Origin: the human T2T-CHM13v2.0 reference genome, Homo sapiens
Length of the DNA: 64,000 nt
Strand: one strand, 5' to 3'
NCBI RefSeq assembly: GCF_009914755.1
Contig: NC_060947.1
Positions 6,396 through 41,668 of the stretch are shown here, one piece after another (position 1 is the first letter of the stretch; the number at the start of each line of letters is the position of its first letter). The position numbers were made by a program, and so were the translations under genes. The notes below the pieces were generated by a model. It was not told the origin of the DNA. It made no database searches and saw nothing but the letters and a program-made list of their open reading frames with translations.

Positions 6396-7151
6396 TGAGC
6401 CACCTCACCTGGCCCCATTCTTTTGCTTTCTACCCTTTCTTAACCCTGTTCCCAAAATGTATGCGTCTGTGGCTGGAATATGTTAAAGGGAAGTAGCTTT
6501 CCACCTCTGTATTGGTTCATTCTGACTCTGCTTTTTCTTGCACCTGTGCTCTTCTTTTTAAAATGTTTTTGAGTGTTTTTATTTAACACTAATACACATT
6601 GGGTTTGGCCAAATAGATGTCTTTTCATCCCTGTGCCCCTCTGCAATGATACATTTCTGGAGAGGAGAGGCCAGGCAGGTTTCATTATCCTTACACATTA
6701 CCTGGCAAGCTGCCATGTGCAACAGGTATTTAATACATATTTTTTGAAAAACAATCTCTCATGTCTTTGGAATCATTGGGAACTACAACCAAGTGAAGGC
6801 AGTAGAAGTTGGTGGCTGATGAAGTGCCTACAATGCATGCTATTTCTATAGGGAAGATTCCAAACGTACGTCAATTGTTAGTAAAGGAATTGATAGAGGC
6901 CAGGCATGGTGGCTCATGCCTGTAATCCCAGCACTTTGGGAGGCCGGGGCGGGCGAATTGCTTGAGCCCAGGGGTTCAAGATGTAGCCTGGGCAACATTG
7001 TGAGATTCCGTCTCTACTAAAAATACAAAAATTAGCCACATGTGGTGGCTCACACCTGTAGTCTCAGCTACTTGGGAGGCTGAAGTGGAAGGATCGCCTG
7101 ATTCCAGGAGTTCAAGACCACGCTGGGCAACATAGGGAGACCTCGTCACTA

Positions 7152-7337
<186 letters not shown>

Positions 7338-39920: not shown

Positions 39921-40235
<315 letters not shown>

Positions 40236-40297
40236 CTAGGCAGCAGAGTGAGACTTTGTCTCAAAAATAAATAAATAGTTAAATAAAACAACCAGCA

Positions 40298-41369
40298 GCT
40301 GCTCTGCCTATGGAGTAGTCATTTTTTATTCCTTTACTTTCTTAATACATTTGCTTTCACTTTATTCTATGGACTTGCTCCGAATTCTTTCTTGTGTGAG
40401 ATCCAAAAACCCTCTCTTGGGTCTGGATCAGGACCCCTTTCCGGTAACATCTTCCTGGTGAACCACGAAGGGATGATACTGAGGAGACCCTCGACCCAAA
40501 GGAAAAAGACTGCAGCACTGATTGGCCAACTTTGGACTGACCCTGCTTATTCCTGTGAACCAATCAGTGACCTGTGACGGCTCCTCAGAAGAAACAAGAG
40601 GGATGGACAACACCTTTTGTTGGAGCTCAGTTATGAGTGGCTCAGTTATGACTGAGCTCCCTTCTACCCTGAATACAAGAGACCCTAATAGGCAGGAATA
40701 TCATCGCCCCTATTCCTCCTGAAGAAGTTACAGAAGATGAATCTTCCTCCCTCTAAACCGTTAGGATTAAGGGTTTCCTTGTAAAAGGGAAGGGCAAATA
40801 TGTCAGAGGCGTTTGAACCAGAGTGATTCTATCTTGAATAGGGGCTGGGTAAAATAAGGCTGAGACCTACTGGGCTGCTCCTGGGCTACTCCCAGGAGGT
40901 TAGGCATTCTAAGTCACAGGATGAGATAGGAGGTCAGCACAAGATACAGGTCACAAAGATCTTGCTGATAAAACAGGTTGCAGTAAAGAAGCTGGCTAAA
41001 AGCCACCAAAACCAAGACAGCAATGAAAGTAACCTCTGGTCTTCCTAACTGCTCATTATACACTAATTATGATGCACTAGCATGCTAAGAGACACTTCCA
41101 CCAGCGCCATGACAGTGCCATGGCAACATCAAGAAGTCACCCCACATGGTCTAAAAAGGGGAAGAACCTTCAGTTCCCGGAATTGCCCACCCCTTTCCTG
41201 GAAAACTCATGAATAATCCACCCCTTGTTTAGCATATAATTAAGAAATAACTGTAAGTATCCTTAGTCCAGCAGCCCAAGCTGCTGCTCTGCCTATGGAG
41301 TAGCCATTCTTTATTCCTTTACTTTCTTAATAAACTTGCTTTCACATTAAAAACAACAACAACAACACC
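40298..41369 (+). mobile_element. MER41 (ERV1) processed retrocopy: R-U5-leader/3' internal-U3-R-A tail
   Basis: LTR 3' part 40298-40449, PBS-like 40456, PPT 40783-40800, LTR from TGTCAGAGGCG 40801 ending just after AATAAA 41329; TSD AACAACCAGCA. Confidence 0.85.
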
Positions 41370-41668
41370 AACAACCAGCAAATATATCAGAGGCTTAGCA
41401 TCCCCTATTCAAGGGGACAGTTCTGGAGGCCGAGAAAGAAGTAGAAAGGTGGAGAATAAAAGACACAAAGGAGCAGAAGAATTTTATCTTGGCCTCCATG
41501 TGGCACCTCACAGCTTGGGAACAACAATTTCTCTCATAATTTTCCTCAGCTCCACCACTCACAAGCTGTGTGACCTCGGGCAAGGCACCCAAGCTCCTCT
41601 GGGCCTCAGCTTCCCAGTCAGTACAATGGGGTAACAGTAGTGCTTACGTTTTTTGTGTTTTTTTTTGA

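What the first reader, a model, noticed from the sequence alone, without database searches (positions are those of the whole stretch)
40287..41380. Spliced, polyadenylated MER41 ERV mRNA retrotransposed in trans by L1
This is neither a provirus nor a solo LTR. The 5' LTR lacks U3 and starts at GCTGCTCTGCCTATGG (40298), which in the 3' LTR lies ~30 nt downstream of the TATA-like position (41252 vs 41283), i.e. at the predicted TSS. After U5 (ends 40449) and a PBS-like TGGTGAACCACGAAGGGA (resembles tRNA-Arg PBS), only ~350 nt separate the LTRs, with an apparent jump at ACTTTGG (40535), where I infer the splice donor was used. The 3' LTR lacks U5, stops 11-14 nt after AATAAA (41329) and carries an A/CAA tail. 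The whole is flanked by an 11-bp TSD AACAACCAGCA rather than a 4-bp retroviral TSD. Such processed copies are established for HERV-W; I do not know them as well described for MER41. It is a fossil of the subgenomic RNA structure.
Basis: partly seen in the sequence, partly recalled or inferred. Interest (0 to 1): 0.7.

Follow-up and report, generated by a model that had tools for sequence, protein, structure and literature searches.

The report
L1-made retrocopy of spliced MER41 RNA
This stretch is a DNA fossil of a twice-spliced, polyadenylated RNA of the ancient retrovirus family MER41 that was pasted into the genome by the LINE-1 machinery, and many sister copies show that MER41, like HERV-W, was widely copied this way.

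Summary
Window 40298-41369 reads R-U5-PBS-leader | 71-nt exon | 3' internal end-U3-R-A/CAA tail. It has no 5' U3 and no 3' U5, and it sits between exact 11-bp repeats AACAACCAGCA.

Both internal jumps fall on splice sites seen in unspliced copies elsewhere in the genome:
- 40535|40536 joins donor TTTGG|gtaagt to acceptor tttAG|ACTGACC.

The PBS matches the 3' end of tRNA-Arg(TCG), 18/18 with one extra base.

The locus is not a one-off:
- At least 8 copies join exon 1 directly to exon 3.
- Other copies use three further acceptors.
- In two samples, 16 of 27 leader-bearing loci start at R without U3, and 11 of 19 loci with a 3' end stop at R plus an A-run.
- Nine of 11 copies with both ends in hand show an A-run plus a TSD.

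Reviews I read state that HERV-W is the only HERV group mobilised by L1. The locus is therefore ordinary in kind, but it belongs to a family for which I found no such description. Outgroup empty sites could not be checked.

The parts
39960..39974 (+). 5' copy of the TSD of a later Alu (ATAAAACAACCAGCA). It contains a third copy of the MER41 TSD 11-mer (39964-39974). It is followed by a 10-nt filler, CAACCAGCAA (39975-39984).
39985..40282 (+). Alu with an A-rich tail, inserted after the retrocopy into the retrocopy's 5' TSD. It is not part of the retrocopy but explains the triple 11-mer.
   Evidence: order of events inferred
40287..40297 (+). 5' target-site duplication AACAACCAGCA. It also forms the end of the Alu's 3' TSD (40283-40297).
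40298..40364 (+). 5' R, beginning at the transcription start G of GCTGCTCTGCC. No U3 lies upstream.
40365..40449 (+). U5, ending ...GGTAACA
40456..40474 (+). Primer-binding site complementary to the 3' end of tRNA-Arg(TCG), with one extra G
40450..40535 (+). Leader up to splice donor 1. Exon 1 is 40298-40535 and ends ...CCAACTTTGG.
40536..40606 (+). Exon 2 (71 nt), between acceptor 1 and donor 2
40607..40800 (+). Internal part of exon 3, from acceptor 2 to the polypurine tract (AAAAGGGAAGGG, 40783-40794). It holds a copy-specific 15-bp tandem duplication at 40625-40654.
40801..41282 (+). U3 of the 3' LTR (starts TGTCAG). It includes the 43-nt block with two TTCCNGGAA motifs (41174-41182, 41195-41203).
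41283..41349 (+). 3' R with AATAAA at 41329-41334. No U5 follows.
41350..41369 (+). Decayed poly(A) tail, AAAACAACAACAACAACACC
41370..41380 (+). 3' target-site duplication AACAACCAGCA

Best explanation
A MER41-type provirus elsewhere in the genome was transcribed from the start of R in its 5' LTR.

The RNA was spliced twice. The leader donor was joined to an acceptor about 0.5 kb before the 3' LTR. Then a roughly 0.27-kb second intron was removed. The RNA was cleaved and polyadenylated about 15 nt after the AATAAA in the R of the 3' LTR.

This small, apparently non-coding RNA was then reverse-transcribed and inserted in trans by LINE-1, by target-primed reverse transcription at a TTTT/AT-like nick. 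The insertion produced an 11-13-bp target-site duplication.

The copy has no promoter at its 5' end but carries a whole U3-R at its 3' end. An Alu later inserted into its 5' TSD.

Shown here: the anatomy, the exact splice junctions, the tail, the TSD, and sister copies with the same hallmarks.
Inferred: LINE-1 as the enzyme source, the order of the two insertions, and the age.
For: 1. Anatomy. The element reads R-U5-leader-E2-E3-U3-R, with no 5' U3 and no 3' U5.

2. Junction 1. In the genome search with 40440-40700, 34 of 35 leader-only hits end at query position 95-97, which is window 40534-40536. GT follows the leader in 18 of 22 unspliced loci. Acceptor 1 has a pyrimidine tract plus AG directly before ACTGACC in 8 of 10 copies.

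3. Junction 2. Donor 2 (GATGG|gtaatg) carries GT in 8 of 10 copies. Acceptor 2 (cttccAG|ATATCACC) carries AG in 12 of 12 assessable loci.

4. Independent copies use the same sites in other combinations.
- Eight copies join donor 1 to acceptor 2. The joined letters were read in 7 of them.
- L054 uses an acceptor about 3.5 kb before the 3' LTR.
- L036 and L039 use another acceptor.
- L022 uses a cryptic AG 18 nt upstream of acceptor 1.

5. L1 hallmarks.
- The TSD 11-mer occurs 3 times in the window against 0.07 expected.
- The reconstructed target is TTTAT|AAAACAACCAGCA.
- Of 11 R...R copies with both ends in hand, 9 have an A-run plus a TSD of 8-19 bp. These are the window, L002, L019, L022, L051, L052, L053, L054 and L058.
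- The copies start at the same G wherever the 5' R is intact: 9 of the 10 (L022 is shifted or diverged by 1-2 nt) and 2 of 3 (L059's R is cut by an Alu).

6. PBS. It matches tRNA-Arg(TCG) 18/18 with a 1-nt insertion.
Against: - The tail is short and decayed: A4-5 followed by CAA repeats.
- No outgroup genome could be examined, so the empty site is not shown.
- No other copy with exactly the exon 1-2-3 structure was found. One search scored 40 of 727 candidates. This isoform therefore rests on one locus plus the splice signals seen in other copies.
- Two of 11 sister copies (L048, L055) show no clear TSD, and L048 has no A-run.
- A 17-mer at the PPT/U3 border recurs at the TSD/3' flank and is unexplained by this model.
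- L1 involvement is inferred from hallmarks only.
Confidence: 0.92

Rival explanations
1. A normal provirus integrated here and was later cut down by deletions that removed the 5' U3, most of the interior and the 3' U5.
For: ERVs often carry internal deletions. L015/L042 is a true provirus with a large internal deletion.
Against: This would need four independent deletions ending exactly at the transcription start, at two GT..AG pairs and at the poly(A) site. It would also need an A-rich tail and an 11-bp flanking repeat instead of a short retroviral one. The same boundaries recur at unrelated loci.
Confidence: 0.02
2. A spliced RNA was packaged and copied by the retrovirus's own reverse transcriptase and integrase.
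For: L028 (chr10:75.65 Mb) joins pol directly to exon 2 and exon 3 yet has a 3' LTR with U5. Spliced forms with full LTRs may therefore exist in a related family.
Against: Retroviral reverse transcription rebuilds U3-R-U5 at both ends and leaves no poly(A). Here U3 is missing at the 5' end, U5 is missing at the 3' end, a tail is present and the TSD is 11 bp.
Confidence: 0.01
3. The locus is a DNA-level duplicate (segmental duplication or gene conversion) of another retrocopy, not an insertion of its own.
For: Duplicate pairs exist in the family (L010/L011 on chrX).
Against: No second exon 1-2-3 copy was found. The best other full-length match is 77% identical and has a different middle exon (L002). 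The locus has its own TSD.
Confidence: 0.02
4. A reverse transcriptase other than L1 ORF2p made the copy, for example an ERV enzyme acting on a polyadenylated RNA followed by repair-mediated insertion.
For: The enzyme is not visible in the sequence. The target TTTT/AT is only near the L1 consensus.
Against: The TSD length, the A-rich start of the TSDs in the sister copies and the tail directly abutting the TSD are the standard L1 signature.
Confidence: 0.04

Closest known systems
HERV-W (HERV17/LTR17) processed pseudogenes made by L1 (Pavlicek 2002, recalled and cited in the papers read; Grandi 2016 PMC5016936 and Grandi & Tramontano 2017 PMC5537654, passages read)
   Same: The structure is R-U5...U3-R-poly(A), with no 5' U3 and no 3' U5, and a long TSD. 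About 60% of loci that bear internal sequence are of this type: 135 of 213 for HERV-W, against 16 of 27 and 11 of 19 in my two samples. Both families are placed in the HERVW9 supergroup. A tRNA-Arg PBS is reported for ERV-W-like elements of Platyrrhini.
   Different: The family is different. Here the LTRs are of MER41 type, including the 43-nt STAT1-motif block. The candidate numbers are far above HERV-W's 213 loci: 727 first-look candidates for the leader/internal query and 4754 for the whole element. Spliced forms are prominent here. For HERV-W, only a few copies lacking pre-gag are discussed as spliced.
Processed pseudogenes (retrocopies) of cellular mRNAs
   Same: They start at the transcription start site, have their introns removed at GT..AG, carry a poly(A) tail and a TSD, and insert at an L1 endonuclease-like target.
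   Different: The template here is a retroviral transcript. The copy therefore carries a complete promoter/enhancer (U3) at its 3' end.
Multiply spliced small retroviral RNAs (HERV-W 1.3-kb transcript, HERV-H non-coding spliced transcripts; recalled, with PMC3253121 seen in a listing only)
   Same: The leader donor is joined to acceptors close to the 3' LTR, giving short RNAs.
   Different: Here the isoforms are inferred from genomic fossils, not from RNA. No ORF above 44 aa remains.

Membership tests
L1-mediated processed pseudogene | The 5' end lies at the transcription start and the promoter (U3) is absent | tested here: met
   The element starts at G 40298. Nine of the 10 sister copies start at the same G. 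U3-bearing copies have cataaaaat... 30 nt upstream.
L1-mediated processed pseudogene | The 3' end lies at the poly(A) site and is followed by an A tail, with no U5 | tested here: met
   R ends at about 41349, 15 nt after AATAAA. The tail 41350-41369 is decayed. Sister copies have A6-A24 runs.
L1-mediated processed pseudogene | Introns are removed exactly at GT..AG | tested here: met
   There are two junctions, 40535|40536 and 40606|40607. Donors and acceptors are seen in unspliced copies.
L1-mediated processed pseudogene | A target-site duplication of about 7-20 bp at an A-rich, TTTT/A-like target | tested here: met
   The TSD is 11 bp exact, or 13 bp if two further As are counted. The target is TTTAT|AAAAC.
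L1-mediated processed pseudogene | An empty orthologous site in a species that diverged before the insertion | not testable with these tools
   No primate genome other than the window's own assembly is held.
MER41 (ERV1, HERVW9 supergroup) | LTR of MER41 type. B-type copies carry a 43-bp block with STAT1 motifs that A-type copies lack. | tested here: met
No tool names repeat families. Support: the window has a 43-nt block with two TTCCNGGAA motifs, and L053 and L022 lack exactly this block. This is the difference described for MER41B versus MER41A in PMC9963469 (passage).
MER41 (ERV1, HERVW9 supergroup) | Match to the curated Dfam/Repbase MER41B and MER41-int models | not testable with these tools
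   No repeat library is held.
HERV-W | LTR17/HERV17 sequence; about 213 internal-bearing loci | tested here: not met
   The candidate numbers are far larger. The LTR carries MER41-type features. A direct comparison with LTR17 was not possible.

The most novel reading that the evidence does not exclude
MER41 is a second HERV group whose spread owed much to LINE-1. Roughly 60% of sampled loci that bear internal sequence are R-to-R poly(A) retrocopies. They derive from both A-type and B-type sources.

Together these retrocopies preserve a fossil map of the virus's alternative splicing: one leader donor, at least four acceptors and one 3' intron. This contradicts the printed statement that only HERV-W was mobilised by L1.

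It also raises the possibility that the trait is shared across the HERVW9 supergroup rather than being a peculiarity of W.
Probability: 0.55. Interest if true: 0.7.

Novelty: new member of a known kind. Interest (0 to 1): 0.62.

Why it matters
Two papers from the HERV-W field state that W is the sole HERV group copied by L1, and ask what makes W RNA special (PMC5537654; PMC8554740).

- A second, older and larger family with the same behaviour would turn that question into a comparison. The features to compare are those shared by W and MER41 RNAs: the poly(A) signal in R, the tRNA-Arg leader and germ-line expression.
- The retrocopies record transcription start, poly(A) site and splice sites of a virus that was active 45-60 My ago (age from PMC9963469). 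No RNA can now be sampled from it.
- Each retrocopy carries a full U3. L1 may therefore have helped to scatter the interferon-responsive MER41 enhancers. One such U3 lies 2.9 kb upstream of WAS exon 1.

Tried and rejected
- Pfam on 20 ORF pieces of L055/L056 gave no family. The same was true for X-read-through three-frame translations of the env-side region of L055, L024 and L022. I therefore cannot say by test which gene the exons lie in. A hydrophobic, membrane-anchor-like stretch inside intron 2 was seen by eye only.
- ORFs in the retrocopy are at most 44 aa. I dropped the idea of an accessory protein.
- The 3' flank does not look like part of an older, related LTR. Its local alignment score of 14 equals the shuffle mean of 14.
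- L002's second junction is about 4 nt away from the nearest GTGAGT in unspliced copies. It is not counted as an exact splice.
- L048 and L055 have no convincing TSD.
- I could not obtain Pavlicek 2002, which is not held. One search failed on a term with brackets and was not repeated.
Only three small stretches were fetched afterwards. L057 lacks its 3' end and L059 its intact 5' R.
- A full census was not possible. Each genome search scores only 40 candidates.

Full report
**What is in the window**

The sequence and the repeat scan show two copies of a 67-71-nt segment, at 40294-40364 and 41279-41349, 92% identical. I cut the element into pieces: U3 40801-41282, R 41283-41349, U5 40365-40449, leader 40450-40535, E2 40536-40606 and E3 40607-40800. 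I mapped these pieces on related loci.

The element reads R-U5-leader-E2-E3-U3-R. Upstream of 40298 there is no U3, only the 11-mer and an Alu tail. Downstream of 41349 there is no U5, only AAAACAACAACAACAACACC and then the same 11-mer.

AACAACCAGCA occurs exactly three times in the 64-kb window, at 39964, 40287 and 41370, against 0.07 expected.

**Family**

No tool names repeat families. Three results support it:
- The window's U3 has a 43-nt block with two TTCCNGGAA motifs (41174-41182 and 41195-41203). Relatives L053 and L022 lack exactly this block. This is the difference that a review passage gives for MER41B versus MER41A (PMC9963469).
- The PBS at 40456-40474 equals the complement of the 3' end of tRNA-Arg(TCG) plus CCA, 18/18 with one extra G. 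The tRNA genes were found by pattern, typed by ARAGORN and read.
- The whole-element search gave 4754 first-look candidates and the leader/internal search gave 727. This is far above the 213 HERV-W loci quoted, so the family is not HERV-W.

**The two junctions are splice junctions**

I searched the genome with 40440-40700 (40 of 727 candidates scored). Of the 35 hits that match the leader only, 34 end at query position 95-97, which is window 40534-40536. One ends at position 84.

In the loci that go on unspliced, the next bases are GT in 18 of 22, mostly gtaagt. The other four read GG, AT, GC and AT.

The sequence that follows 40535 in the window, ACTGACCCTGC..., lies about 5 kb further on in long copies. 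There it is preceded by ...tttttttctgcaatttAG in 8 of 10 copies.

The same 10 copies continue after ...GGGATGG (window 40606) with gtaatg. GT is present in 8 of 10.

The window's next bases, ACAACACCTTTTGT, correspond to ATATCACCTTTTGT. In all 12 assessable loci this is preceded by ...ttaatcttccAG.

The RNA therefore lost two introns. Exon 1 is 40298-40535, exon 2 is 40536-40606, and exon 3 runs from 40607 to the poly(A) site.

**Position on a full provirus**

I used L056 (chr10:50.39 Mb) as the reference. It has U3-R-U5 at both ends and was read on its sense strand. The landmarks are:
- Donor 1 is at 1720.
- Exon 2 is at about 6792-6850.
- Acceptor 2 is at about 7127.
- The 3' LTR starts at 7327.

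The template RNA was thus a small, doubly spliced species and not the env-type subgenomic RNA. What these exons once encoded could not be established. Pfam found nothing in ORF pieces or in X-read-through translations. The retrocopy has no ORF above 44 aa.

**Sister copies**

*Exon 1 joined directly to exon 3.* A search with the leader-exon 3 junction of L053 (40 of 485 candidates scored) gave 8 hits that span the junction:
- chr1:165.02 Mb
- chr15:56.15 Mb
- chr20:47.07 Mb
- chr12:98.32 Mb
- chr4:81.11 Mb
- chr20:45.52 Mb
- chr10:17.11 Mb
- chr14:65.77 Mb

Of the other 32 hits, 29 begin at query position 69-71, which is exactly acceptor 2. The remaining three begin at 65, 65 and 74. The joined letters ...T[T/C/G]TGG|ATA[T/C]CA[C/T]C were read in seven of the eight copies. 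For L058 only the contiguous match was seen.

*Other isoforms:*

| Locus | Structure |
|---|---|
| L054 (chr17:16.18 Mb) | Donor 1 joined to an acceptor about 3.5 kb before the 3' LTR (unspliced copies read ttttgccttccAG\|CTGTGCC). This is the best candidate for the env-type mRNA. |
| L036, L039 | Donor 1 joined to a further acceptor; 3 of 4 unspliced copies have AG there |
| L002 | That acceptor, a roughly 100-nt exon, then exon 3. Its second junction is about 4 nt off the nearest GTGAGT. |
| L022 | A cryptic AG 18 nt before acceptor 1; intron 2 retained |
| L024 | Intron 1 retained, intron 2 removed |

**L1 hallmarks in the sister copies**

For 11 R...R copies I had both ends. Nine have an A-run directly after R and a flanking direct repeat:

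| Copy | Flanking repeat |
|---|---|
| window | 11 bp |
| L002 | about 14 bp, 1 mismatch, read by eye |
| L019 | 9 bp |
| L022 | 11 bp |
| L051 | about 18 bp, 1 mismatch |
| L052 | about 19 bp, 2 mismatches |
| L053 | about 19 bp, 2 mismatches |
| L054 | 9 bp |
| L058 | about 8 bp |

L048 has neither a tail nor a TSD. L055 has a tail but no clear TSD. Most TSDs begin with a run of A. Nine of the 10 copies start at the same G of GCTGCTCTGCC; L022 is shifted or diverged by 1-2 nt.

**How common are such copies?**

There are two samples. Both are biased by the ranking of the search tool, and both are lower bounds.
- 5' ends: the 27 leader-bearing loci, analysed.
  - 14 start at R with unrelated, often A-rich, upstream DNA.
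  - 2 more have an Alu inside R and no U3.
  - 10 have U3.
  - 1 is unclear.
- 3' ends: the 19 loci L002-L020, analysed.
  - 11 end at R followed by an A-run with no U5.
  - 1 has no U5 and no tail.
  - 7 have U5, two of which are a duplicated pair.

Copies both with and without the 43-nt block are among the retrocopies.

**Target site and the Alu**

Upstream of the Alu (39985-40282) lies ATAAAACAACCAGCA (39960-39974). The same 15-mer follows the Alu tail at 40283-40297.

The simplest order of events is as follows. The retrocopy inserted first at ...TTAATTTAT|AAAACAACCAGCA|AATATATC..., which on the bottom strand is TTTT/AT. The Alu then inserted into the 5' TSD copy, duplicating it and adding a 10-nt filler. 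The reverse order needs an extra deletion. This order is inference.

By recall, the Alu looks like an old (J-type) subfamily. If so, the retrocopy would be old, in line with the 45-60 My age quoted for MER41 and with 77-88% identity to its relatives.

**Literature**

The following papers make the "HERV-W only" statement:
[quoted passage not shown] The searches for an earlier description of MER41 retrocopies found none:
- "MER41" plus "processed pseudogene" found 14 papers. In the passages of the four I opened, the two terms are unconnected (PMC4724089, PMC5753468, PMC11359688, PMC9963469).
- "MER41-int/MER41I" found 9 papers, seen as a listing only.
- "endogenous retrovirus / processed pseudogenes / R-U5 / U3-R" and the search including "subgenomic" gave no description of MER41 retrocopies.
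- The HERVarium preprint passages do not treat them.

Pavlicek 2002 is not held. Subscription papers and Repbase/Dfam notes were not visible. An earlier description therefore cannot be excluded.

**Verdict**

In kind, this is an ordinary L1-made processed pseudogene. Its interest is that the template is a MER41 transcript, that many sister copies exist, and that together they record the splicing pattern of an extinct virus.

**Unexplained**

The 17-mer GCAAATATGTCAGAGGC at the PPT/U3 border (40794-40810) recurs with one mismatch at 41378-41394, across the 3' TSD and flank. Expected occurrences are 0.01. The rest of the flank is unrelated to the element.

Noticed in passing
window 39960-40297: An Alu (39985-40282) sits in the retrocopy's 5' TSD. 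Its own 15-bp TSD, ATAAAACAACCAGCA, contains the 11-mer, so the 11-mer occurs three times. A 10-nt near-repeat, CAACCAGCAA, lies at the Alu's 5' junction.
   Followed up: yes
window 40794-40810 and 41378-41394: The 17-mer at the polypurine-tract/U3 border recurs with 1 mismatch across the 3' TSD and flank (2 hits against 0.01 expected). The bottom-strand primer region of the target would have been complementary to an internal part of the template RNA. No explanation was found.
   Followed up: partly
window 41163-41207: The U3 keeps the 43-nt block with two TTCCNGGAA (GAS-type) motifs 21 nt apart. It lies 2.9 kb upstream of WAS exon 1 (44278), in sense orientation, inside the first intron of the long WAS transcripts. 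No paper holds both MER41 and Wiskott-Aldrich. The motif count in the window is not by itself significant (3 against 1.84 expected).
   Followed up: partly
window 40625-40654: A 15-bp tandem duplication (GCTCAGTTATGAGTG / GCTCAGTTATGACTG) lies in exon 3. Other copies have the unit once.
   Followed up: partly
L028 (G000:C10:75652291-75655470), 1226-2289: In this relative, a pol-end-like stretch (judged by eye) is joined exactly at acceptor 1 to exon 2 and exon 3, with no env region and no intron 2. Its LTR has a different U3 and keeps U5. It may be an env-less lineage born from a spliced RNA.
   Followed up: partly
L010/L011 (G000:C23:61.56 and 61.66 Mb): An inverted duplicate pair of a provirus in which about 130 nt of the exon 3 region is repeated three times at a period of about 228 nt.
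   Followed up: no
L052 (G000:C14:65771500-65775700), 1485-1779: The retrocopy has a partial second U3(316-482)-R after a truncated R at its 3' end.
   Followed up: no
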